A DNA stretch of 64,000 bases from Eledone cirrhosa. Lineage: Eukaryota. The stretch spans positions 196,726,001-196,790,000 of the forward strand of contig OZ024740.1 in the NCBI GenBank assembly GCA_964016885.1. Reading direction: 5' to 3'. The number at the start of each line of letters is the position of its first letter. The first letter of the stretch is position 1. The translations under genes were made by a program, and so were the position numbers. The notes below the pieces were generated by a model. The model saw only the letters and a program-made list of their open reading frames with translations, made no database searches and was not told the DNA's origin. This document shows, in pieces, positions 96-56,600 of this stretch.

Positions 96-1020
96 ATGTC
101 TCTGGCACCCGACGATTCATCTACGGCAGAAATGGCACTCAGGGCATCATTTACATAAAGGATTCCACCATTCTGGGTGCACGATCCAACACTGTGGTTC
201 GCGCACATTGAAGCGCAGTTCGCATCGAACCGGATCGTTAGCGAGGCATCCCGTCTCACACATGTCATCGGTTTGATGTCTCCGGAGATTGTGAATGAGG
301 TTCGAGACCTCATTTTAGCACCACCCGGCTCTGCGTCATATGATACATTTAAAAGAACATTAGTTAAGCGGACGTCGGAGTCACAGCAGAAGCGTTTACA
401 CCAGCTCCTCATATCGGAGGAATTGGGAGATAAAAAGCCAACGCAACTCCTACGGCGAATGAAGCAGCTTCTGGGCGAACATAAACTCCCGGATGAAATT
501 TTCAAGCAACTCTTCCTCCAGCGTTTGCCTTCTGCCACACAAGTTGTACTAACATCCACCAGGGAGTCCACCACCATAGAAGAACTCGCCGAGCTGGCAG
601 ATAAGATCATGGAGGTACCACATCTGCACTCAACTTTAGCGAATGTGACACCAGACGTGCCGCCCACCAATCCTTTCCTTCAGCCCTCCAGCGCCACAGA
701 GATGCCCGATCTACACCAGTTACTGGCACAGCAAGCAACACAGATACAGGCCTTGACACAACAAATTCAGGCCTTGTCACTGGATAACCCTGCCGCGTCG
801 GTCCAACAGTCGAACTCGCCGATTTGGTGGTCGCTCAAGAAGTCCGAGCGCATCTCGGGATTCACCAGATATGTGTTGGTACCACCAAAAATTCGGGAGA
901 CGAGCGCAAAAGTGCAGTCATCCCTGTTCATTTGTCGAATCAGGGAAACGACACAGCCAGAAACTAAATGCGACGGACGTTTCTGGCCCTCATAACCAAA
1001 GTCGCCTATTTTTCATTCAG
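96..1020 (+). pseudogene. gag: gag (disrupted)
   Basis: ATG at 96, in-frame TAA at 156-158, then IPPFW..PTLWFAHIEAQF. A frameshift near 790 leads into an RS-rich stretch and the CWYHQKFG..AQKCSHPC (CHCC) knuckle. Confidence 0.88.
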
Positions 1021-1021
1021 G

Positions 1022-1116
1022 ATCGCGTCACAGGCGATGAATCGCGTCACAGGCGATGAATCGCGTCACAGGCGGTGAATCGCGTCACAGGCGGTGAATC
1101 GCGTCACAGGCGGTGA
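1022..1116 (+). repeat. 19-bp tandem repeat x5 inside the protease region
   Basis: ATCGCGTCACAGGCG(A/G)TGA: two A-type units followed by three G-type units. Confidence 0.97.
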
Positions 1117-4091
1117 ATCACTCACATATTCCGACCTACGGAGAACAGTCCCTGACACTAAATTTGGGACTACGCTGCACTTTCCAGTGGGTATTCGTTG
1201 TGGCTAAGCTGCCGACCTCTATTTTAGGAGCTGACTTTCTTCAGCACTTCTTGCTGATAGTGGACCTGAAAAACCAACGACTCATTGATAACTCCACTGG
1301 TCTCGCTGTGCGCGGCATAGCCGCTAGGACAGCCACAGTCAGTCCAGTCATTTCACGATCGACAACAACAACCTGGCACAACCACATCATCAACAAATAC
1401 CCAGACGTAGCTCGACCACTATTCAACGCTTGCCCTGTAAAACATGACGTCACACACCACATAAAAACACACGGCCCACCTGTCGCTGCACGATCTAGAA
1501 GGTTACCACCAGACCGGCTGAAGTCCGTCAAACAAGAATTTCAGCACATGCTGGATCTCGGCATCATACGTCCGTCCAGCAGCAACTGGTCCTCACCCAT
1601 ACACTGTGTACCCAAGAAGTCGTCGAACGACTGGCAAATCTGTGGCAACTACCGTGCACTGAACAACTGCACCGTTCCTGACTCTTATCCAGTGCCTCAT
1701 CTACAGGACTTCTCTAGCTCGCTGCACGGGGCTCGTATATTTTCAAAGATCGATCTTGTGCGAGCTTACAATCAGATACCCGTTGAGCCCGCAGATATTC
1801 CTAAGACCGCCATCACAACACCCTTTCGAATGTTCGAATTTCTGCGTATGCCTTTCGGTTTGCGAAATGCAGCGCAGACATTCCAACGGTTCATTGATAC
1901 AGTCACCAGAGGTCTACCTTTTGTATACGCATACATTGACGACTTACTGGTGGCCAGCAGCTCCGATGAAGAACATGAGAAACACCTGGATCTCCTATTC
2001 ACACGTTTGCGTGAATACGGAATTGTTATCAACCCCAGCAAATGTAAGTTCAGAGTTGCGTCCCTTCATTTTCTGGGACACATCATTGACAAAGATGGTA
2101 TTCGCCCACTTAAGGAGAAAGTCAAATCCATCATTGACTTTCCACAACCTACATCTCTCCGCAAACTGTGAGAATTTCTTGGCCTGGTAAACTTCTACAG
2201 AAGATTTATACCCCACTGTGCAGAGACAGCCCAACCACTCACAGATTTGCTGCGGCAGCGTACAACCAAAAACGCAAACATCAATCTCAGCGAAAAAGAA
2301 TGTACCGCTTTCGCTGAGTTGAAGAAAATGACCGAGGCTACAATGCTGAGTTACCCCAAACCTGATGCCCCAATGTGTTTATTGACTGATGCATCCGATT
2401 TCGGAGTTGGAGGTGTGCTTCAACAACTCTCGGGCGATATTTGGCAACCTGTATCTTTTTTCTCTAAGCGATTAAAACCCGCCGAAACTAAGTACAGCAC
2501 ATTCAGTCGTGAATTATTAGCAGCATACCTTGCTGTCAAGCATTTTCGACACATGCTAGAAGGTTGTGTGTTCTCTATATACACCAACCACAAACCACTA
2601 GTGTACGCGTTCAACGCCAAGCCTGACCGACACTCACCCAGGGAGGTCCGACATCTGGACTTCATTTCTCAGTACACTACTGATATTCGGTACATTAAGG
2701 GTGCCACCAACTCAGCAGCTGATGCCCTATCGCGCATGAAGCTTAACGCAATCCACACCACTGCCACTATCAACCTCCAGAAGATTGTTGCGGATCAACA
2801 GAATGATGAGGAACTGCTGCAACTCCGGAGATTGAAGGAATGCCAGCTGCCCTCTTCTTCGGGTTATATTTGGTGCGATATCTCCACAGGCCACGAGCGC
2901 CCATACGTGCCCCGGAAACATCGACGCGACGTTTTCTCGGCACTGCATTCTCTGGCACACCCTGGCGTCCGCGCCATGCAGAAACTGATGGTTGCCCGCT
3001 TTGTGTGGCCCAACATCAACAAGGACACCCGCGAACGGGCTAGGAACTGTATCGCGTGCCAGAAGGCGAAAATTCACCGGCACATCAAAGCCCCGATCGG
3101 TTCTTTCGCAACACCTGATACTCGGTTCCAACATGTGCATATAGACATCGTTGGACCTTTGCCTCCTTCTCACAACTACACTCATCTTCTCACATGTGTC
3201 GACCGATTTTCTCGCTGGCCAGAAGCTTTTTCCCTGACGGATATTACTGCGGAAACTGTCGCCAAAACGCTAGTGTTTCACTGGGTTTCGCGTTTCGGCA
3301 CACCCGCGACCATCACTACGGATAGAGGACGTCATTTCGATTCGCACCTATTTACCGAGCTGACTCGTCTCCTCGGGTGCAAACACATCCGTACAACAGC
3401 GTATCACCCTGTCGCTAACGGCATGGTAGAACGCTTCCACCGCCAGCTAAAAGCATCTATCAAGGCTTACAAAAACTCCACTAACTGGTTCAAATACCTC
3501 CCACTCATTCTTCTCAGTATTCGTTCCACTGTTAAGGAGGGAGTCGGACATTTTCCGGCTGAAATGGTGTATGGCACCGTACTCACTCTACCCGGACAAA
3601 TGATCGCTCCAGTTTCGCCACAAGAACTTCCAGACTCAACAAAACATGTGCATCGTTTACGGTTATCGATATCGAATCTGTCTCCTTCAGCCCCTAAACA
3701 ACAGTACGTTACTTTACACATACCAAAAGACATCGATACATGGACGCATGTTTTCGTTAGAAATGACGGTATTCCATCGCAACTTCGTCCGACGTATTCC
3801 GGGCCCTATAAGGTGATACAGAAATGCCCTAAGTATTTCATCCTCGACTTGAACGGGAAACGAAATACCGTCTCCATTGATCGTTTAAAAAAAGCGTTCA
3901 TAGAACAGGATTTGCCACCAGTACCCACCGTCTCTCCAGCAGACTCACCAACAACTTTGCCCGTCACAAACATGACAAATTCTGCACAACCCCGACACAC
4001 CAAATCTGGAAGAACAGTCCGATGGCCCACGCGATACGTACAAGTTTATCGGGTAAGTACAAATTATGCATCAGGCCGACATTTCGGCTAA
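1113..4091 (+). pseudogene. pol: pol (protease C-terminal half, RT, RNase H, integrase) with one nonsense codon
   Basis: ORFs 1113-2171 and 2247-4091 are in the same frame, separated by TGA at 2169-2171 ([16 protein letters not shown]). Motifs: RT YIDD, RNase [15 protein letters not shown], integrase HIDIVGP/TDRG/NGMVER, GPY. Confidence 0.95.
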
Positions 4092-12796: not shown

Positions 12797-12830
<34 letters not shown>

Positions 12831-14100
12831 TATCCTTTTACGTCCACTTTTCCTTGCTTGCAAGGGTTGGACGGGTCCTATTCAGAACTGCATCTCTCCA
12901 CTTGTCACGGTCCATCGTCATCTCCTTGTTGAGTTTCAGCGATCTGAGGTCTGCTCTCACCACCTCCGCCCATGTTTTTCGTGGTCTACCTCTACTGCGT
13001 CTTCCTTCTACTGGGATTTCTTGGCACCTCTTTACCCAGCGGTCATCCTCCATGCACATCACATGTCCATACCATCTCAGCCTTCTCTCCTGCACACCAC
13101 AACTTATCCCTCTTATATACAGTTTCTTTCTCAACTCGTCTATGCTTGGTCGTTCATGCACATTGGCATTGCACATGCAACTGTCCATACTTGCTTCATT
13201 TCTCTCCAGCCGTCGCATATCTTCTGCAGTTGTTGCCCATGTCTCACTACCATGCAGTATCGCGCATCTCACACAGGCACCATATATCCCTTCGTCAACA
13301 GAGGAAGCAGCTCCCTAAACTTCTTCCAACCCGTCCTTATTCTAGATACTATGGCCTCGGCCCCCCCCCCCCCCCATGCTAATCTGATGACCTAGGTACC
13401 AGAAGCTATCAACCACTTCTATAGAACCCACATGCATTGGAAAAATGTGTTTATCACTGCGCTTACTACTGCAAACTTTCCCTGTACATCTACTGCATAC
13501 GTAGTTTTCCCTACCTGTTAGTTTGCCTGCTATCCCACTACATCTCTTGTGTACCCAACATTTGCATTGCGTACATTTTATGGAATCTATGCCAGTTCTT
13601 TTCCTACATATCGAACATGACCATTTCCCTGATGAAATCAGAGTATTGTCCTCTCTTCTACTTATCAACACTTTTGTTTTAGCTATGTTCACTCTCAGGC
13701 CTCTTGATTCCAACTGCTGTTTCCATAGCCAGAATTTATTCTCTATCTCCTCTACTGATTCTGCTATAAGAACCAGATCATCAGCATAGAGAAGTTCCCA
13801 TGGGCAGCCAGTCTTAAACTCCTCTGTTATGGCTTGGAGGACTATAATGAACAAGAGCGGGCTGAGGTCCGAACCCTGATGTACACCTACATCTGGAATT
13901 CCTCACTAAACTCCATTCCTATTCTCACTTTACTGACAGCACCCCTGTACATAGCTTGCACTGTCCTCACAAGCCATTCTTCTACAACTAGTTTCCTTAG
14001 GGACCACCAGATGACAGATTGGAGACCCTATCAAAGGCCTTTTCTAGGTCAACAAAAGCTAAGTATAGTGGCTTTAAGAATCTCCCTTATAGTTGCCTCA
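12797..14100 (-). mobile_element. RTE-clade LINE, 5'-truncated and frameshifted
   Basis: RT LLYADD, C-terminal HGSETW...RLRWYGHV...GRPRKTW, (GAT)n tail. Confidence 0.93.
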
Positions 14101-26753: not shown

Positions 26754-29700
26754 GTAAGTACAAGCTTTAGTGTTTATACTTGCAATTGCTGTTGTTGTAT
26801 AGCTCCCAAGTCAGTCCAGATTGAGCATCCTCTAATTAAAAGCACACTAACTGAAACCATTACATCATTTTTTCAGCCATAGTGTATCTAAGACTTAATT
26901 ATCCAATGTGTCCTTTTTTTTAAGATGGTTGAGTGTGATTTGAGGAAGAATTGGCTGTTATTTCTAGAAAGCTGAGGGACTGCCTCATTTGTTTTGATCA
27001 CATAAAGATTCCTTCTTATGCAATATGTTATGGAGGGGTGGGATAATGATAATTTTGAGTTAGAGAAGGATCGTTAGTGGCACTGTACCATGTAGCAGAG
27101 ACTAACTACAGTATGACAAGCATGGCATGCGACATTGGCACCACTTGGACTCAGAGCACTTTCTATTAGTCAGATAAGCTATCACTGGAGAGTGAAAAAA
27201 AAAACTTCTTCAGTTGTATGATCTGTCTTTGATTATTATGGGTGAGAAAGATTATGGTAGCTGGATCATTAACTTTTCATGACTGCATTTCTAATGAAAT
27301 ACACTCTATTTTAATTAATTAATGAAGAGGGATTTACTTAAATTATTAATTATTTCATTACTAAGGTAGTAACTTAATGTAAGGTTCTTATATAAAATAA
27401 TGTTGAAAGATTTTAATTTAAATTAAAAACCTTTGAAATTGATGGTTCTATTTCATAGAACCAAAACTGGTTCTGGCCGGGCTGGTAACTAAAGTGTTAA
27501 ACCACTTATAAATTATTAGACTCAAAGTAATTTGGGCAAGGGTGTAATTTCACTGCTTGCCATAAGTGCTACTTTCCTTAGTTACACCTCTGTCATTTAG
27601 GGTTATATAAATGTTTATTTCAAATTTGTAAAAACCAAGAAATCTACCATGTAGTACTACTTATTAGCCTTTCTTATGAAATTTGCTGCTGCCAAGTTTT
27701 AGAAAAATGTTAAAATTTCTAAGCAGTTGGTGAGCAAAAGAGGATACATGATGTAGTTGAGATCATGCCAAATTCAACTTAACATTCCAATGCTGATTAA
27801 AATAAATATGTACTGTAAAGTGGTTGTGTAGGTCTCACAACAAAATGCACCCAGCACACACTGTAAAGTGGTTGTGTAGATCCCATGACAAAAAGCATCT
27901 AGCACACACTGTAAAGTGGTCGTGTAGATGTCATGACAAAAAGCATCCAGCACACACTGTAAATGCGGTTGGTTTTAGGAAGGGGATCCAGCTGTAGAAA
28001 CTAAGCCCAAACCAGTCCTGTATGAGCAAGTCATGATCATCAGACCCGGCTTGTCGCAGAACGGGGCAACTCGTCCAACCCATGCTAGCATGGAAAATAG
28101 ATGTTAAACAGTGATGATGATGAATCAAGTACTGGGAGTGAATATAATGGACTGTTCTCTTTCACCAAAATATGTAACCATGTTCTTTCCTATATTAGGA
28201 ATTGTTATTAATGTTCTTGTACTTTTTTTTCTCTTTAAGGTATCAATGCTGGCAACTCTCAAACACAAAAATATTGTTTCCTACGTAGAATCTTTTGAAG
28301 GTAATTCTTTTTTTTTTATTGGAAGCTTATTATGAACAGAGAAATGACAAACTGATATCATATGTTCAATATGTATATCGCACTTTCTGCGAATTCAGAG
28401 ATCACAGCTCTGATACTATAGGCATGTGGTTAGATTGTCTAAGGAAAGAATCGCTGGACCGATTTTATGGGTAAAACCAACCGGCAAGAGATCCAGGCAT
28501 AGACCCCGAGCAAGATGGTTGGATAACATCCATGAGCTTGGCTGGTCATGCTTGGGGATCCAGCCTGGTCAGCTGGAGCTGGTTGCTTTTGACAGGACCC
28601 GCTGGAAGGAGTGTTTGAGGACTCTGTCCCCACGACCCTCTCAGGAATAAATGGGAGAAGAAAAAGAAGATATCGCAACTTGCTCCTATATATTCTGTAT
28701 TGCGTCGGTTTTATGCATTTCCTGTGGACACAATCCCTGCAAATTGGCTTATTGCAAAAAATGCCTTCATAACCTTTATTACATCTACATATTCCAGATT
28801 GTAAGCAAGTGCCGTTGTAATATCTAGAACATACTACTCCTTTGCAGTTTGTTCCTTTGTATCCAGACTTACAGTTAGAGATATTTGGTGAGATACATGT
28901 GCCTATGTCAAAAATTCTTATATCCTTCTTGTGTATCAACAACCCTGTGTTTTTTATTTACTCTTTTTTCTCATTTTTTTGTTTAGAAGGCTGACACTAG
29001 GTTTCTAGTGATTACATGGTTAGCTCTTTTGATAACAAAACCCCTGAAACTGCCCCTGGTTTTATGAAACTAATCTGTTTGTTTTAATGGGTTTATATTT
29101 ATCTAAAAACTTTTCATCATAATTTTATGTTAGAACCTCTGTTAATTTATGTTCCAAACACCAGCTATGTTACTAAACTTTCCAAATTATTCTAAAAATA
29201 GTAGTGACAGCAGCTTGCCTACATCAATGTTTCATTGAACTAACAAATGAATGAATCAATCAATCAGTCAATTGATATTTTATTTAGTATATCACATTGT
29301 AGAACAAATGTGTTGAGTTTGTGACCTGTTTTAGATTCTAAATGTAACCATTTTACTTTAATTCCACTTCAAGTACCCTTAAGAGAAACACATGAACCCT
29401 ACATACTCATGTTTTCTTCTCTTAACCTTTTAGCACTTAAACCGGCTACATCCGGCCAGAATTCTCTCACTTTTTTCTGTTCAAACAGGCCATAACTGGC
29501 TGCTCATACTTATGTTAAGGTATAATTCTCGAAATAAATAATATCAAAATCTCATAGATTCGATATTATGTGCGATAATTATGTGAGGTAAAGCCTTCAC
29601 CGTGAAAATATAATAGTAAAAATAGAGTAATGTGAATGTTAAAGGGTTAAATCTGAATTCTTAACAGCCTATAATGATTTAGCAGAAAATATTTAAAAAC

Positions 29701-47529: not shown

Positions 47530-47616
<87 letters not shown>

Positions 47617-50600
47617 CACAAGAATCAAAGCTATGTTAGAGCATTTAATTGCTGACAATTGTTTCTTCCAAGCCTAGGCTTGGAGTCTTTGGAGCATTAT
47701 TAGCAATGTTTGTACATATAATCAGCCTCCTATTCCGCTGAAGAATTATACAGATACGTATTGTGGACAACAGTGTGGGATGGATGCGACATATATTATG
47801 TTAAATTGTACAATAAGATTCAAAATTAAAATTAAAAGCTTTTGGTGGGGCACATGTGGCAGATAATACAAGAGTGTCTAGTAAATAAATAATATTAAAG
47901 AGACAGTACGTGCGTTAGTCATATAAAGCAATTGAACAAGCAAAAGTATCAAGCATATATGAGTGCTGGGTGTTGCATATAAAATACAAGCACTTATAGC
48001 ATGTGTGTTATAGCATATGCTATAAGTGCTTGTATTTTATATGCAACACCCAGCACTCATATATGCTTGATACTTTTGCTTGTTCAATTGCTTTATATGA
48101 CTAACGCACGTACTGTCTCTTTAATATTATTTATTTACTAGACACTCTTGTATTATCTGCCACATGTGCCCCACCAAAAGCTTTTAATTTTAATTTTGAA
48201 TCTTATTGTACAATTTAACATAATATATGTCGCATCCATCCCACACTGTTGTCCACAATCATCATCATCATCATCATCATCATCATTTTACGTCGCCTTT
48301 CCCTGCTTGCAAGGGTGGGACGGGAACTGATTCTGGCTTGAGTTCTACAGCTGGATGCCCTTCCTAACACCAACCTCATTTACAGTGAGTGCTGGGTGCT
48401 TTTTTTCCGTGGCACCTACACGTCCACTTTACAGTGGAGTAAACTCTACAGCTGAGTAAACTGGAGCAATGTGAAATAAAGTGTCTTGCTCAAGGAAACA
48501 ACACATCACCCGGTCTGAGAATTGAACCCACAACCTTTCGATTGCAAGGCCAATGCTCTAACCACTAAGCCATGTGCCTCCATAATTAAACGCTTACGGC
48601 ACCTAGGGTTCCCAAGCGGTCACCCATCTAAGTACTAACTAGGCTCGACATTGCTTAACTTCGGTGATCGGACGAGAACCGGTGTTTTCAGCGTGATATG
48701 GCCGTAAACGTATCTGTATAATTCTTCAGCGGAATAGGAGGCTGATTATATGTATAAACATTGCTAATAATGGTCTGAAGACTCCAAGCCTAGGCTTGGA
48801 AGAAACAATTGTCAGCAATTAAATGTTCTAACATAGCTTTGATTCTTGTGTATTCTATATTACTGCTCTGTATAACAAATGTTGTTCTTACATTGAGCTA
48901 TTTATCTTACTGGTAATAAGGTAGTAATAAATTACTGACCTTACCTGTTTATAGTTGTATATAGTATAATATATACATAACTATAAGTAGTATCCTTAAT
49001 ATTATATATATATATATATATCATAATAAAAAACGTTATCATATGACAGCCACTTTGTGATAGTCTGAGAAGTTATAATGTGAGCATGTGCTTAATATAT
49101 TCCTCTCTCCCTCTTTATCTCTTTCACACATTGTTGACATGACATATCCACTCATATCAAAAGAGCAAACAATATATGTGTATATGTGCATGTGTAAATG
49201 TGAGTCTTTATTTATAACAAGAATAAAAACAATTACTCAGTGTTCAGAGGTATTGGAACAGCTACTGTAGCTATCTATTGCTTTATCTATCTCTCTGTCA
49301 ATCTGTCTATCTCTCTCTGTGTCACTCCATCTGTCTGTCTGTCTTTCTATCTATATCTATATCTCATCTCTGTGTATCACTCTATCTTTCTCTCTCTGTT
49401 TCTCTGTATGTCTATATCACTGTCTGTCTGTTCAGCTCTCTATCTCACTTGTTATTGTGTATTTCCATAAATAACAATTTGTTATTTAATCAATGTATCT
49501 GTTCTGTTAACCAGGCCTGGAAGTGGTGCCAAAAGGAAGAAAGTTGCTGTGGTAAGTTGTCATTTGTTTATCATATGGACTAGATTTTATATTTGTTTTT
49601 CTATGTCTGTTGATATACTAAGCTACATTTCAGAGAAGTTTAGGTTAGATCTCTCCCTTTTGTTGTATTGTTTAGCCCATTATTGGTGGGAAGGAAGGAG
49701 AAAGGTGTCTTCAAATTGTAGACCCGACTTCAAAAGCAAGCAACAGAGTGAACCCCATTAAAGGCACCCAAGGGCCAGGTAGGGGTGTTAAACTTTGCAA
49801 CAGATTAAGTCTACCACCCTAGTTTTGTTTCATCATCTTTTGTGAGTTATTTAATAGAACTAACATATCATGGGGCTCAGTTGTTACTTCTTCCTTTTAA
49901 AATTACTTTGTCTTAGAGAAAACAGGAATGAAGTAGTATTCAAACTAGTGTGATTTATATGGTTGGTAATAATTTTTTTATTTTCATTGCTTAGTCAGGA
50001 GGAAAAGCAATGCCTATAACCTATTTTTTGTGGGCATCTGAGAGTGGTGGAAGGGAAAATATCCTCAAACTGGAGACCTGGCCTAAATCCTTACAACAAA
50101 GAGGAGTCCACTAAAGGCACTCAAGGACCAGAGCATGGTGTTAAACAGAGTAATAGCTTAACCCTTTAGCATTTACATTACTCTATTTTTACTATTATAT
50201 TTTCATGGTAAAGGCTTTACCTCACATAATTATCTCACATAATATTGAATCTATGAGATTATGATATTATTTATTTTGAGAACAATACCTTAGCATCAGT
50301 ATAGGTGGCCAGTTATGACCTGTTTGAACAGGAAGAGGTGAGAGAATTGTGGCCAGATATAGCTTAAGAGTTAAGTAAAAAAATTACAGAGAAATGTATG
50401 AAGGGAGAGGGAGATTCTAGAATTTCAGTTCTTACAATGAAGAAATGTTATTCATCTAGTTTGTTTTTGCTTTTTATTAGCCCAAGGTCAGCCTTCCTCT
50501 AGCAGACCTCCATTTTTTAAATGTGAATTTCTGCTTCATTACAGATGGTACAGTATGTTCATGTGCAAGCAGCTTCATCCCATTAGCCCATAAACTGAAG

Positions 50601-53600: not shown

Positions 53601-56600
53601 AATAAATCAAAAAGTTGAACACTTATTTTTTAAAAATCATTTATTTACAATTTTACTACTCTTTCTTTGTAGCATGGTACCTGAATCAGGCTCGACATAA
53701 ACCACTAAACATCTTAGGAGGAAAAGCAGTTGGTCCCAGGTCAGCCATTCTGTTATATATTTTATTATCTTAAAATAGTCTAATGAATCAACCAAACAAG
53801 TTGGGGGTGGGCATCAGAAGAGCCAGTTGCCATAGGTCTATTATTTTTTAATGGGATCCTATTCACCTCAAATTCTAGTTCTTTTATTTTGTTCTGTTAC
53901 TTGTAAGTACATCATGTACCCATATATATCCATAAATACTTATAAATTGGTTAGGTCAGCTCTGCTTCTAAAACCATGTAACCTAGTACAACCTGCTTCA
54001 TGATTGAGTGGTCGGTAGCTAAACTGGCTCTCCTACCAGACCCTGATTGGAGGAGGAGGTTAAGTGGAACTCCAGAAGCACAAAATAAGAGCTGTTAAAA
54101 AGGTGGATGAACTCTTCAGAGTCAATGGCCATTTACCCCCGACTATGAGTTAAATAGCGTCACTAACCTGCAATTGGCCAAGTGTGGTGAATATGGCTAC
54201 AACTCTGACATGACCAAAACCAAACAGAAAGCAGTGGATCATCCAGGGAGGGATTTCTCCACAGGAGTGAGAAGGCTCTGGATTGGATTGAACTTATAAA
54301 TCATATGTATTTAGCATTGATTACTAAAAGACTAAATGAACAGCTTGACATGGGATGGGATCGAGCTGGACGTATTACCAGCGTTGCACAAGTCCACTGT
54401 TGAGAGAAACATTTGTTTTTTATATTGAAAAAAAGAAATACTATCCTTAGAAAATATCATTTTCTCAATTATTTTTGTGGGGCAGTACACATGGTATTGG
54501 GGTCAGCTTTCAAAGGAACCAAACCAACTTATTCTGAAAGCTTGGTTCAAAATTCCCTTACCATTTACAGAAATTTCAATTGATAACTTTTATTTTTAAA
54601 ACCACAGGAATAGATTCAGCCCTACTCCTTGCCAAGGTAAAATTGTCTCTGACTTCCTTCAACGAAAAGCTGATGCTGCTCGTAACAAAATAAAAGTTCA
54701 GGTAAGAATTTTTTTTTAATTTTGTTTAATTTGGTACTGTTGGGCTCAAGCATGACTGTAAGGTTAAGATGTTTGCTTTACAACCACATAGTGGCTGGTT
54801 TAATCCTACTGCAACATCAGTGAGTGAAATTTGGTTGATGGAAACTGTGTGGAAGCCCATCATTTATCTATATGTGTTTGTGTGTAAGTTTGTCTCTATT
54901 ATGTATTTACGAGGGGAGATCAAAAAGTTCGCGGAATTTTTCAAAAAATATGATTTACCATCAATTTATTTTTCTACATAGTTGCTATCCAGGTCAATAC
55001 ACTTGACAAGGCGATGCTTCCAGCTTTGTAAGCCGTCTCTAAAGAAAGTTGAAGGCCTTGTTCGAAGCCATGTGTTGGCAGTGTTTTTAGCTTCTTCAAC
55101 ACCACTAAAACGGGTTCCTTTTAGCATTTCTTTGAGTTTTGGAAAGAGGAAAAAGTCTGATGGGGCTAAATATGGACTATAAGGCGGGTGAGGAAGCACT
55201 TCCCATCGAAATTCTCGAAGAACTTCTTTTGCAACCCACGCAGAATGCGCTGGTGCATTGTCATGGTGAAACAAGATCCCACCATGAAGTTTCCCTTTTC
55301 GTTTCTTGACTAAAGCCTCTTTCAGCTTCCTTAAAATATTTGCATAGTAAGCTCCTGTCACAGTTCTTTGACCTTCAAGATAATCTATTAGTATCACCCC
55401 ATCTGAATCCCAGAAAATGGTGGCCATCACTTTTTGATCCGACTTTTGAGATTTGAACTTGATTGGCCCCGATGATCCACGTGGAAGCCAGTGTTTTGAC
55501 TGCTGTTTGGATTCAGCATCATACTGGTAGATCCAGGTTTCATCTCCGGTGATGATTCTGGTCAGGAAATGCTCTTCATCAACTTCAATTTTGTTTAATA
55601 TCGTCAAAGACAGATCACTTCGAAGAATCAGCTGATCAGGGTGCAACGCTTTTGGGACCCATCGCGCTGAAAGCTTGCTTAGTCCCAAATTATCGTGCAG
55701 AATTGAATTTGCTGAACCATATGAAATGTCTAGGGACTTAGCTAACTGATTAACTGTTATTCTTCGATCTTCTTCAATTAAAGTCTGAGCAGCCTCAACG
55801 ATTTGGTCATTTTTTTATGTTCCTAGTCTCCCACTGTGATGGTCGTCTTCAAGGTCGTCTCTCCTTTGTTTGAATTGCTGAATCCACTTGTAGACAGCAG
55901 TTTTCTTTGGAGCAGTAGTACTGTAAACTTTAACTAAAACCTCCATAATCTGTGTCCCTTTCCATTTGAGTTTCACCAGAAACTTGATATTCGATCTTAT
56001 CTCAAAATAACTATTTTCCATTGTTCCAAAAAGAGGTTTTTTAAAGAGTGTCAGTACTGTACAATAGTCCACGCATAACTGACTGCAAGTGACTAATAGC
56101 AAGGTAAACACCCAGTGACAATGTTCTGACATGTTTAATATTGTTTTAATCTATTTTTTTCTTACTACGATAACATTCCGCGAACTTTTTGATCCCCCCT
56201 CGTACATTGACACTGCTGAAACAGCTGGTGCTGTTTATGTTCTTCTGCTTAGTGTTTCAATACTAAAAAATAAGGATTGGCACCAGGAAAAGCATCCACA
56301 TGTAGAATACTGCCTCAAAAAGTCCCATCCAACCTCTTGTAGTATGGAATAGCAAACATTAAAATGATATTGATGATGAAGACGGTGACAATGACAATGG
56401 CAATGGCCGACATCTATTAATTGACCTTGTATTTAGTGACCATATGATAAAAGGATTTGTTGTTTATCAGTAGATCTGATATTTCGTATTTTGGGATTGC
56501 AGAAATTCCTTTATTCCTGATTATTTTAGTGTTATACTATCTTAAACCTTTCATTACCATATTTCTAATTGAAGACAGCTTATGATTTGCAAATATTTTT

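What the first reader, a model, noticed from the sequence alone, without database searches (positions are those of the whole stretch)
48260..48709. 5S rRNA-tRNA-SINE-RTE-tail chimera apparently inserted as one unit
Seen on -: a near-complete 5S rRNA, a short TTAATTAT-like linker, a tRNA-headed SINE, an RTE-type 3' end and (GAT)n, all co-oriented. The opposite palindrome arm preserves the empty site (GTCCACAAT|ACGTATCTG), showing no target loss and no TSD, with short microhomology at both junctions. Known: LINE machinery makes template-switch chimeras (e.g. U6-L1) and 5S-derived SINE3 families exist. Inference: either a one-off RTE-mediated chimera or a member of an undescribed 5S+tRNA dimeric SINE family with two Pol III promoters.
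Basis: partly seen in the sequence, partly recalled or inferred. Interest (0 to 1): 0.72.

Follow-up and report, generated by a model that had tools for sequence, protein, structure and literature searches.

The report
5S rRNA precursor fused to SINE
A complete copy of a 5S ribosomal RNA precursor is joined end to end to a full-length short retrotransposon (SINE) and sits as one 448-base insertion in an octopus-like genome; it was probably made when a retrotransposon's copying enzyme jumped from the SINE RNA onto a 5S RNA, a known kind of accident that has happened at least 17 times with this SINE here.

Summary
On the minus strand, 48709-48260 reads: a complete 5S rRNA, then TTTAATT, a full-length tRNA-like SINE, a tail shared with an RTE-like LINE, and (ATG)9. 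The other arm of the palindrome, and other copies of that repeat, keep the unbroken site. So 448 bases entered with no target duplication or loss.

- **The linker is not random.** TTTAATT is the start of the genuine 3' trailer of one 5S gene array (GCG-TTTAATTTTTTTTT). It is followed directly by the SINE's own first base (ATGGAGGC). This looks like an unprocessed 5S precursor joined end to end to a SINE RNA.
- **This junction is unique, but the architecture recurs.** 16 other loci carry 5S + trailer + the same SINE head. They show about 13 different linkers and unrelated flanks. In 7 of the 17, the 5S part is truncated at its 5' end.
- **Other partners occur too.** Other dispersed 5S copies are fused to at least three other retroposon sequences.
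- **The SINE is abundant without 5S.** A 30-base marker of it has 11,143 exact hits.

Verdict: this is a recurrent template-switch chimera of the U6/L1 kind, and the likely way 5S/tRNA SINEs such as HaSE3 and AmnSINE1 arose. It is not a dimeric SINE family. It is a new member of a known kind, of moderate interest.

The parts
48591..48709 (-). Complete 5S rRNA retrocopy. It carries the variant ATATCACGCTG / CTTAGATGG, plus one CpG-to-TpG change (CAATG). Its first two bases, GT, are shared with the target.
   Evidence: Rfam RF00001, 110.5 bits, model 1-120. Comparison with array genes and dispersed copies.
48584..48590 (-). TTTAATT, the first 7 bases of the 3' trailer of one type of 5S gene. It is a remnant of an unprocessed 5S precursor.
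   Evidence: 37 of 38 5S genes in the array at C4 92.70-92.75 Mb end GCG-TTTAATTTTTTTTT (L079).
48287..48583 (-). Full-length SINE starting at its own first base (ATGGAGGCACATGG). It has a tRNA-like head, a body with the deletion-prone hairpin region missing, and a LINE-like tail.
   Evidence: Ordinary copies begin at A|TGGAGGC, also in flanks that are not TA repeats. Family copies are 80-94% identical. Alignments.
48515..48572 (-). tRNA-like head of the SINE, with A-box-like TGGCTTAGTGG and B-box-like GGTTCAATTCT.
   Evidence: Rfam tRNA scores 24.9 bits, below the 29-bit cut-off, E 0.22. ARAGORN finds none.
48260..48324 (-). 3' tail shared with an RTE-like LINE, ending in (ATG)9 at 48286-48260.
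   Evidence: 59 of 66 bases are identical to the 3' end of the LINE fragment at about 12810-12875 (minus strand), whose ORF stops about 10 bases before its (GAT)n.
48708..48856 (.). Outer part of the right palindrome arm: target DNA on the 5S side of the insertion.
   Evidence: Pairs with 47611-47759, 5 mismatches in 149.
48014..48259 (.). Inner part of the right palindrome arm: target DNA on the tail side of the insertion.
   Evidence: Pairs with 47760-48005, 1 mismatch in 246.
47611..48005 (.). Left palindrome arm carrying the unbroken (empty) site CAGATACGT|ATTGTGGAC at 47759|47760. It is a member of a dispersed long-inverted-repeat family.
   Evidence: The family search gave 2369 candidates, and the scored copies are 88-96% identical and uninterrupted across the site.
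12810..13902 (-). Fragment of the candidate partner LINE. It has the C-terminal part of a reverse transcriptase, a very short 3' UTR and (GAT)n.
   Evidence: Pfam RVT_1 and PHD on 13342-13902. Translation and tail match. Full-length relatives are about 1040-1090 aa with PF03372 + PF00078 on contigs of 3.3-3.8 kb.

Best explanation
This 448-base insertion is a chimeric retrocopy, probably made in one event when an RTE-like LINE's reverse transcriptase reached the 5' end of a SINE RNA and jumped onto the 3' end of an unprocessed 5S rRNA precursor.

Shown directly:
- The parts, their order and their shared orientation.
- The join of 5S gene trailer to the SINE's first base.
- The single gain at an otherwise unbroken site, with no target duplication.
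- 16 further loci with the same architecture but different linkers and flanks.

Inferred steps:
1. The LINE endonuclease nicked the bottom strand at 5'-ACAAT^ACGTA. This is a TA-like site, like the (TA)n that ordinary copies of this SINE prefer.
2. The AT at the primer's 3' end paired with the (GAU)n tail of the SINE RNA, and the SINE was copied to its first base.
3. The enzyme switched template to a 5S precursor still carrying UUUAAUU, and copied it to its 5' end.
4. The cDNA end was joined to the target through 2 bases of microhomology (GT).

The 5S used was a nuclear precursor, not mature ribosomal 5S. The chimera is most likely a dead-end by-product, not a propagating element.
For: **Anatomy.** Searches show the parts. 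The 5S is full length (110.5 bits, model 1-120).

**The linker is a gene trailer.** 37 of 38 5S genes at C4 92.70-92.75 Mb end GCG-TTTAATTTTTTTTT.

**The SINE starts at its own first base.**
- In the 20 unselected copies, my pattern located the head in 10. In 9 of those 10, TGGAGGC is preceded by A, also after non-TA flanks such as CA, GA and AA.
- The 29 copies mostly read ...TATATA|TGGAGGC.

**Single event.** The empty site in the left arm and in other family copies shows one 448-base gain. There is no target base between the parts, no duplication and no loss.

**Recurrence.**
- The gapped pattern gives 16 hits against 0 for the reversed control. L075 adds one more, making 17 loci.
- Their linkers are TTTAATT, TTTAATTTT (three loci), TTTAATTTTTTA, TTTAATTA, TTAAATTTGT, TTTACTTTT, TTTACTTTTT, TTTACTGCTATTT, TTTACTGCTATTTTG, TTTACTGCTATAT, TTTAAA, TTA, and an A-rich linker (two loci).
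- These are trailers of at least two gene types, cut at different lengths. Each is followed by (A)TGGAGGC or GAAGG.
- The flanks are all different.

**5' truncation.** The 5S part lacks 6 to about 43 bases at its 5' end in 7 of 17 loci, while the SINE part is whole. This is the signature of a cDNA that began at the SINE's 3' end.

**The SINE does not need 5S.**
- A 30-base marker of it has 11,143 exact hits.
- 0 of 20 unselected copies, and 0 of 29 copies most similar to this one, have a 5S core nearby.

**5S joins other partners.** By pattern matching, 27 of 48 dispersed 5S copies are followed within 75 bases by one of four retroposon sequences. These include 5'-truncated tails of the same RTE-like kind.

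**Target.** Ordinary copies end (GAT)n|ATATAT. This site reads (GAT)nG|ATTG inside ATACGTAT.

**Precedent.**
- HaSE3 is proposed to have arisen by template switching from a tRNA-derived, RTE-tailed SINE RNA to 5S rRNA (PMC3272025, passages).
- U6/L1 chimeras each have a unique junction and do not propagate (bioRxiv 10.1101/2025.02.02.635956, passages).
Against: - No allele or orthologue was seen, so a two-step history is excluded by parsimony only.
- Public contigs laid on the locus did not bridge either junction, so the assembly of this locus has no independent read support here.
- The exact 5S source gene was not found. The gene arrays with the TTTAATT trailer read CTTGGATGG/CGCCTGG, where this copy reads CTTAGATGG/CGCTTGG.
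- The LINE's clade rests on architecture, not on a tree.
- Three loci share the identical linker TTTAATTTT-AT. That could mean limited propagation of one chimera rather than three separate events.
- Template switching cannot be told from RNA-RNA ligation before reverse transcription by sequence alone.
Confidence: 0.78

Rival explanations
1. This copy belongs to a small, self-propagating dimeric SINE family (5S + tRNA-SINE). It would be transcribed from the 5S promoter through the weak TTT stop into the SINE, and mobilised through the SINE's tail.
For: - 17 loci share the architecture.
- Three share the identical linker TTTAATTTT-AT (L112, L113, L075).
- The copy has no run of four or more T between the 5S start and the flank near 48180, so a read-through Pol III transcript is possible in principle.
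- Most dispersed 5S copies share CTTAGATGG. That variant was not seen in any array gene examined and has 51 exact hits, all dispersed.
Against: - The exact junction has 1 hit, itself, at up to 3 mismatches.
- There are about 13 different linkers from at least two trailer types.
- This copy's SINE part differs from the other chimeras at subfamily-type positions that also occur in 5S-less copies: GTGGGTTC, GTGGACGTGTAGG, CGGAAAAAAAGC.
- 17 copies compare with more than 11,000 exact marker hits for the plain SINE.
- The count is below the 100-copy criterion of SINEBase (PMC3531059, passages).
- The conserved upstream flank of the 5S genes (...AAATTGA...) is absent here.
Confidence: 0.1
2. Two separate insertions: the SINE landed first and a 5S retrocopy later landed exactly at its 5' end, or the reverse order.
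For: - Both this SINE and some partner-less 5S copies (5S + trailer running straight into (TA)n: L039, L040, L049) use TA-rich targets. Pile-ups in one microsatellite are therefore plausible.
- One linker (TTTACTGCTA-TAT-ATGG, L121) could hold leftover TA units.
Against: - Here the target is known and is not a microsatellite (CAGATACGT|ATTGTGGAC).
- No target base lies between the parts.
- The same exact trailer-to-first-base join recurs at many sites.
- The 5' truncations lie only in the 5S part.
- A tail-less 5S RNA has no handle for the LINE enzyme.
Confidence: 0.05
3. The two RNAs were joined by an RNA ligase before reverse transcription, as RtcB does for U6/L1, and the ligated RNA was then copied through the SINE tail.
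For: - RNA ligation by RtcB can precede retrotransposition of U6/L1 chimeric RNA (PMC6789731; only the start of its abstract in a search listing was seen).
- The joins are clean end to end.
Against: - From recalled knowledge, not from a call: RtcB needs a 2',3'-cyclic phosphate or 3'-phosphate donor and a 5'-OH acceptor. A Pol III 5S precursor ends in 3'-OH oligo(U), and a primary SINE transcript starts with a triphosphate.
- 5S is also joined to internally truncated LINE-like tails (L053, L069). That fits an enzyme falling off mid-template as well as ligation does.
- This rival is not testable by sequence.
Confidence: 0.05
4. Assembly artefact: a mis-join of repeat-rich reads.
For: No laid contig bridges the junctions.
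Against: - The insertion sits precisely inside one arm of a palindrome, with both flanks in register.
- The architecture recurs at 16 other loci on 12 other contigs.
Confidence: 0.02

Closest known systems
U6/L1 and other small-RNA/LINE-1 chimeric retrocopies of mammals (Buzdin et al. 2003, cited in PMC3272025; bioRxiv 10.1101/2025.02.02.635956, passages)
   Same: - A full-length Pol III small RNA lies at the 5' side, in sense orientation, fused to a retroelement 3' part.
- The whole is inserted as one unit.
- Each locus has its own junction.
- The chimeras do not propagate.
   Different: - The enzyme here is an RTE-like LINE, not L1.
- The 3' partner is a whole SINE, not a truncated LINE.
- There is no target duplication.
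- The 5S is sense and full length with its gene trailer. Human 5S/L1 chimeras are reported as mostly antisense and truncated (same preprint).
HaSE3 of Helicoverpa armigera (PMC3272025, passages; PMC5786205, passages)
   Same: A 5S rRNA sequence is joined to the body and RTE-type tail of a tRNA-derived SINE. The authors propose template switching from the SINE RNA to 5S rRNA.
   Different: HaSE3 lost the tRNA head and is treated as a SINE family. Here the whole SINE, head included, is kept, the 5S carries its trailer, and the copies look like separate events.
AmnSINE1 (Nishihara, Smit and Okada 2006; paper not held; known to me from recall and as reference 10 of PMC3272025)
   Same: [quoted passage not shown]
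   Different: AmnSINE1 is an ancient, amplified vertebrate family. The structural details were not checked here.
5S-headed SINEs with RTE-derived parts (CoeSINE5, SINE-1_Pmo; PMC5786205, passages) and SINE3 (Kapitonov and Jurka 2003, cited only)
   Same: A 5S head with an RTE-type 3' end.
   Different: Those are amplified families with a fixed structure and no second Pol III head.
Chimeric retrogenes of Magnaporthe grisea made by LINE template jumps (PMC2104539, start of the abstract in a search listing only)
   Same: Chimeras made by a non-L1 LINE outside mammals, attributed to template jumps.
   Different: A different organism, different partners and a different LINE. Not read beyond the abstract.

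Membership tests
LINE-mediated template-switch chimeric retrocopy (U6/L1 type) | Copies of two unrelated RNAs fused head to tail in the same orientation, with the small RNA at the 5' side | tested here: met
   5S (48709-48591), then the SINE (48583-48287), both on the minus strand.
LINE-mediated template-switch chimeric retrocopy (U6/L1 type) | The 3' part ends in the tail used by a LINE's reverse transcriptase | tested here: met
   59 of 66 terminal bases match the 3' end of an RT-encoding LINE fragment in the window that also ends in (GAT)n.
LINE-mediated template-switch chimeric retrocopy (U6/L1 type) | Inserted as one unit (a single set of insertion junctions) | tested here: met
   The empty site in the opposite arm and in other family copies shows one 448-base gain with nothing between the parts. 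The intermediate state was never observed, so this is by parsimony.
LINE-mediated template-switch chimeric retrocopy (U6/L1 type) | Independent events: junctions differ between loci | tested here: met
   The exact junction is unique. There are about 13 linkers among 17 loci.
LINE-mediated template-switch chimeric retrocopy (U6/L1 type) | Target-site duplication flanking the whole chimera (as in L1 events) | tested here: not met
   No duplication and no loss. Ordinary copies of this SINE mostly lie in (TA)n, where a duplication cannot be read.
LINE-mediated template-switch chimeric retrocopy (U6/L1 type) | Made by the reverse transcriptase switching templates, rather than by ligation or read-through | not testable with these tools
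   Needs a retrotransposition assay.
Dimeric (complex) SINE family, SINEBase criteria | [quoted passage not shown] | tested here: not met
   16 pattern hits plus 1. Exact anchors were used, so diverged copies are missed and the count is a lower bound.
Dimeric (complex) SINE family, SINEBase criteria | Copies share one structure, including the junction between the monomers | tested here: not met
   Linkers differ in length and origin. The junction of this copy has no second hit.
Dimeric (complex) SINE family, SINEBase criteria | Head at least 60% identical to a Pol III RNA over at least 60 nt | tested here: met
   The 5S matches the genome's array 5S genes at 98% over bases 3-125 of the 125-base query, which spans the 5S and its first trailer bases.
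Dimeric (complex) SINE family, SINEBase criteria | Transcribed by Pol III from its own copies | not testable with these tools
   No RNA run was listed as holding the stretch.
RTE clade of LINEs (as the partner) | A single ORF of about 1000 aa with an AP-endonuclease domain and RT, in an element of about 3.2-3.5 kb | tested here: inconclusive
   Relatives of the window's RT fragment are 1037-1091 aa with PF03372 + PF00078 on contigs of 3.3-3.8 kb. The window copy itself is a fragment.
RTE clade of LINEs (as the partner) | A very short 3' UTR ending in short tandem repeats | tested here: met
   The ORF stop lies about 10 bases before (GAT)n. The criterion is recalled from Malik and Eickbush 1998, which I saw only as a citation.
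RTE clade of LINEs (as the partner) | RT groups with RTE in a phylogeny | not tested
   No reference set of LINE clades was at hand.

The most novel reading that the evidence does not exclude
The dispersed 5S copies of this genome are not random pseudogenes. They would be a tail-less, hitch-hiking 5S lineage, marked by CTTAGATGG, a variant found only outside the gene arrays. This lineage would spread by being captured again and again, as an unprocessed precursor with its trailer, onto whichever SINE or LINE RNA is being reverse transcribed. The partners include an RTE-like element, a second tRNA-SINE with A-rich linkers, and a 65-base element. On this reading the genome shows many independent births of 5S-headed and dimeric proto-SINEs caught at the earliest stage. 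The linkers would also be a fossil record of Pol III 5S precursor 3' ends.
Probability: 0.2. Interest if true: 0.65.

Novelty: new member of a known kind. Interest (0 to 1): 0.42.

Why it matters
- **Mechanism caught early.** SINE heads are thought to be acquired by template switching, but the step is usually inferred from old, amplified families. Here the raw products are visible in number, and their junctions are still readable to the base: 5S gene trailer, then the SINE's first nucleotide.
- **Which RNA is used.** The acceptor appears to be the nuclear, unprocessed Pol III precursor rather than the far more abundant mature 5S rRNA.
- **Which enzymes do it.** An RTE-like LINE, and probably other LINEs of a cephalopod-like genome, appear to do what is best documented for mammalian L1.
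- **Annotation.** These loci should not be called 5S genes or a new SINE family.

Tried and rejected
- **Dimeric family test.** The exact 34-base junction at up to 3 mismatches hits only itself. The family reading was rejected for this copy.
- **A 'short' SINE subfamily.** I first took this copy's missing hairpin as a subfamily marker. One search shows that the 28 most similar copies each have a different deletion there, so it is a deletion-prone spot. The independence argument now rests on other variant positions and on the linkers.
- **Inner arms homogenised by conversion up to the insertion.** The inner arms have 1 mismatch in 246 and the outer arms 5 in 149 (Fisher p = 0.03). This is too weak to claim.
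- **Read support and polymorphism.** Contigs of runs X1-X4 laid on 48150-48850 do not bridge either junction and mostly come from other repeat copies. No RNA holder was listed. Neither counts for or against.
- **Source gene of the TTTACTGCTA trailer.** The pattern has 21 hits, all dispersed, none in an array. The source was not found.
- **Source gene of this copy's 5S variant.** It was not found among about 130 array genes read.
A shorter plain pattern was used instead.
- **Earlier-notes look-ups.** One by words returned nothing, one by place near the window returned nothing, and one did not complete and was not repeated.
- **Nishihara 2006 (PMC1484453)** is not held.
- **Literature searches** for 5S chimeras in cephalopods listed no paper describing them. 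This is no proof that none exists.
Full report
**What is there**

Read on the minus strand, 48709-48260 holds these parts, in order:
- **5S rRNA.** It is complete, at 48709-48591 (Rfam 110.5 bits, E 5.3e-24, model 1-120).
- **Linker.** The seven bases TTTAATT (48590-48584).
- **SINE.** It begins ATGGAGGCACATGGCTTAGTGG at 48583.
- **Terminal repeat.** 27 bases of ATG/GAT repeat (48286-48260).

The SINE head is only weakly tRNA-like. Rfam tRNA scores 24.9 bits against a cut-off of 29, and ARAGORN calls nothing.

The last 66 bases match 59 of 66 with the 3' end of a LINE fragment elsewhere in the window (minus strand, ending near 12810). The reverse-transcriptase reading frame of that fragment stops about 10 bases before its own (GAT)n. 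Relatives of that fragment are single proteins of about 1040-1090 residues. They carry an AP-endonuclease domain and an RT domain, on contigs of 3.3-3.8 kb. This is the architecture of RTE-type LINEs, but I did not place it on a tree.

**The empty site**

The element lies in the right arm of a palindrome (arms 47611-48005 and 48014-48856).
- The left arm reads CAGATACGT|ATTGTGGAC without a break at 47759|47760.
- The gain is therefore 48260-48707, 448 bases, with no duplicated or lost target base.
- GT at the 5S end and AT at the repeat end could belong to either the insert or the target.
- The arm is itself a member of a dispersed repeat (2369 candidates). Copies at 88-96% identity run through this point uninterrupted. 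I read the site in 4 of the 5 copies fetched.

**The linker is a 5S gene trailer, and the SINE starts at its own first base**

This genome has several 5S arrays.
- The large one on C4 (36 of the 40 rows scored) ends GCG-TTTATTTTTTT.
- A second one at C4 92.70-92.75 Mb ends GCG-TTTAATTTTTTTTT in 37 of 38 genes read.
- A cluster on C14 ends GCG-TTTATCTTTTTT.

So TTTAATT is what a Pol III transcript of the second gene type carries beyond the weak TTT, before the real stop.

Ordinary copies of the SINE start at A|TGGAGGC.
- This is ambiguous where they sit in (TA)n.
- It also holds after CA, GA and AA flanks: 9 of the 10 heads located among 20 unselected copies.

The chimera is thus an end-to-end join of a 5S precursor's 3' end to the SINE RNA's 5' end, with no extra base.

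**Family or one-off**

The exact 34-base junction, at up to 3 mismatches, occurs once in 3.0 Gb. A gapped pattern (5S 3' end, 6-26 bases, SINE head) has 16 hits against 0 for the reversed control. One more locus (L075) was seen among the dispersed 5S copies.

The 17 loci have unrelated flanks and about 13 different linkers:
- TTTAATT
- TTTAATTTT (three loci)
- TTTAATTTTTTA
- TTTAATTA
- TTAAATTTGT
- TTTACTTTT and TTTACTTTTT
- TTTACTGCTATTT, TTTACTGCTATTTTG and TTTACTGCTATAT
- TTTAAA
- TTA
- an A-rich linker in two loci, whose SINE has the same head but another body

These are at least two different gene trailers cut at different lengths.

Other evidence that the loci are separate events:
- In 7 of the 17 loci the 5S part lacks 6 to about 43 bases at its 5' end, while the SINE is whole. 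That is what a cDNA started at the SINE's 3' end and ended early would leave.
- The SINE is very abundant without 5S. A 30-base marker has 11,143 exact hits.
- None of 20 unselected copies, and none of the 29 copies most similar to this one, has a 5S core nearby.
- This copy's SINE part carries variants (GTGGGTTC, GTGGACGTGTAGG, CGGAAAAAAAGC) that the other chimeras mostly lack and that occur in 5S-less copies.

I conclude that these are separate events, not a dimeric family. The three identical linkers leave room for a little propagation.

**The wider pattern**

An exact 31-base 5S word has 79 hits. They comprise two arrays or clusters and about 49 dispersed copies, which I fetched.

By pattern matching, 27 of the 48 dispersed copies other than this one are followed within 75 bases by one of four retroposon sequences:
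- a tRNA-headed SINE (6 copies)
- a second SINE starting GGGCGGTGGATTGGCAGTAT, often after an oligo(A) linker (11 by pattern; 14 by eye)
- a short element, ACAAGGGCGGTGCCCCAGCATGG..., that by itself has 2,803 exact hits (8 copies)
- 5'-truncated tails of the RTE-like kind (2 by pattern; 3 by eye)

Of the remaining 21:
- 8 run from the trailer straight into (TA)n.
- 3 have oligo(A).
- 10 were unclassified by the pattern.

Most dispersed copies share CTTAGATGG. No array gene that I read has this variant. It has 51 exact hits, all dispersed.

**Mechanism**

The best fit is target-primed reverse transcription of the SINE RNA by the RTE-like LINE, followed by a jump from the SINE's 5' end to the 3' end of a nuclear 5S precursor.
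- The nick would be at a TA-like site. Ordinary copies end (GAT)n|ATATAT. Here the site is ACAAT^ACGTA on the bottom strand.
- The far end would be joined through 2 bases of microhomology.
- All of these steps are inferred. The anatomy, the exact joins, the single gain and the recurrence are shown.

Rivals:
- a propagating dimer (0.10)
- two insertions (0.05)
- ligation of the two RNAs before copying, as RtcB does for U6/L1 (PMC6789731; start of the abstract in a search listing only) (0.05)
- mis-assembly (0.02)

Reads could not help. Contigs of four runs did not bridge the junctions.

**Comparison with what is known**

The kind is known.
- L1 makes chimeras with U6, other snRNAs and 5S rRNA. 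Each U6/L1 junction is unique, and the chimeras do not propagate. Human 5S/L1 chimeras are mostly antisense and truncated (bioRxiv 10.1101/2025.02.02.635956, passages).
- AmnSINE1 is recalled as a 5S/tRNA-SINE chimera. The paper is not held.
- SINEBase asks at least 100 copies of a family, and separates SINEs from RNA pseudogenes by shared substitutions (PMC3531059, passages).

What is particular here:
- the non-L1 enzyme
- a whole SINE as the 3' partner
- a sense, full-length 5S with its gene trailer
- the absence of a target duplication
- the number of raw events

My searches for such chimeras in cephalopods listed none. That does not show they are unpublished.

**Verdict**

The template-switch reading is supported, and the dimeric-family reading is not. 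This is a new member of a known kind, of moderate interest. The interest lies mainly in the genome-wide set of precursor-bearing 5S chimeras rather than in this one locus.

Earlier notes of this scan on other windows of the same genome called it octopus-like and described RTE-derived and ATTAT-targeting SINEs. They did not describe 5S chimeras.

Noticed in passing
window 47611-48856: The palindrome is an internally deleted member of a dispersed repeat with long inverted ends. The arm has 2369 candidate matches in the genome. Elsewhere two arms lie inverted 1-3 kb apart, for example C28:77073966(+)/77075674(-), C4:145422602(+)/145425871(-) and C4:190588627(+)/190591475(-). It is probably a DNA transposon or foldback element, here reduced to two 395-base arms 8 bases apart.
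   Followed up: partly
G000 dispersed 5S copies (L032-L078); pattern hits: Most dispersed 5S copies share CTTAGATGG (and CGCTTGG). No array gene that I read has this (about 130 genes). The 33-base word has 51 exact hits, none tandem. The source gene is not in the assembly's arrays, or a dispersed copy acts as the source.
   Followed up: partly
L034, L047, L054, L057, L063, L067, L071: 5S copies fused to a second SINE (GGGCGGTGGATTGGCAGTAT...) often have an oligo(A) run of 8-20 bases between the two parts. This is unlike the trailer-only linkers of the RTE-tailed SINE. It may reflect adenylated 5S RNA or another LINE's habit. Several have CATTAT 10-20 bases upstream of the 5S start.
   Followed up: no
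L077 = G000:C692:23313-25343; L134: A solitary 5S gene has the conserved upstream flank of the array genes (...AAAACTATTAAATTGAGCATAAGCTTTC) and the CTTAGATGG variant. It runs directly from GCG into that second SINE, minus the SINE's first few bases.
   Followed up: partly
L082-L110; SINE region matching window 48420-48450: The SINE's internal hairpin (GATGATAGGGAC/GTCCCTATCATTC) is deletion-prone. Each of the 28 copies most similar to the window copy has a different deletion there. Several, including the window copy, instead carry a short repeat of the upstream TTTACTC.
   Followed up: partly
G000:C14:42768000-42778000 (L080) and G000:C28:66800749-66800892 (L075): 5S genes on C14 are arranged as head-to-head inverted pairs rather than a simple tandem array. 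On C28 two 5S retrocopies lie inverted, 113 bases apart.
   Followed up: no
L039, L040, L049, L060: Some 5S copies with a trailer run straight into (TA)n without any retroposon partner. The same (TA)n-seeking machinery may sometimes prime directly on a 5S precursor ending in ...CUA or ...UAA.
   Followed up: no
window 159-4091 (+), 54966-55814 (-), 28439-28957 (-): An LTR-retrotransposon pol region (RT, RNase H, integrase), a mariner-type transposase fragment, and an open frame with EGF-like domains.
   Followed up: no
window 47959-48060: Many sub-threshold Rfam microRNA-precursor hits on both strands. They are simply the centre of the palindrome and are not evidence of a microRNA.
   Followed up: yes
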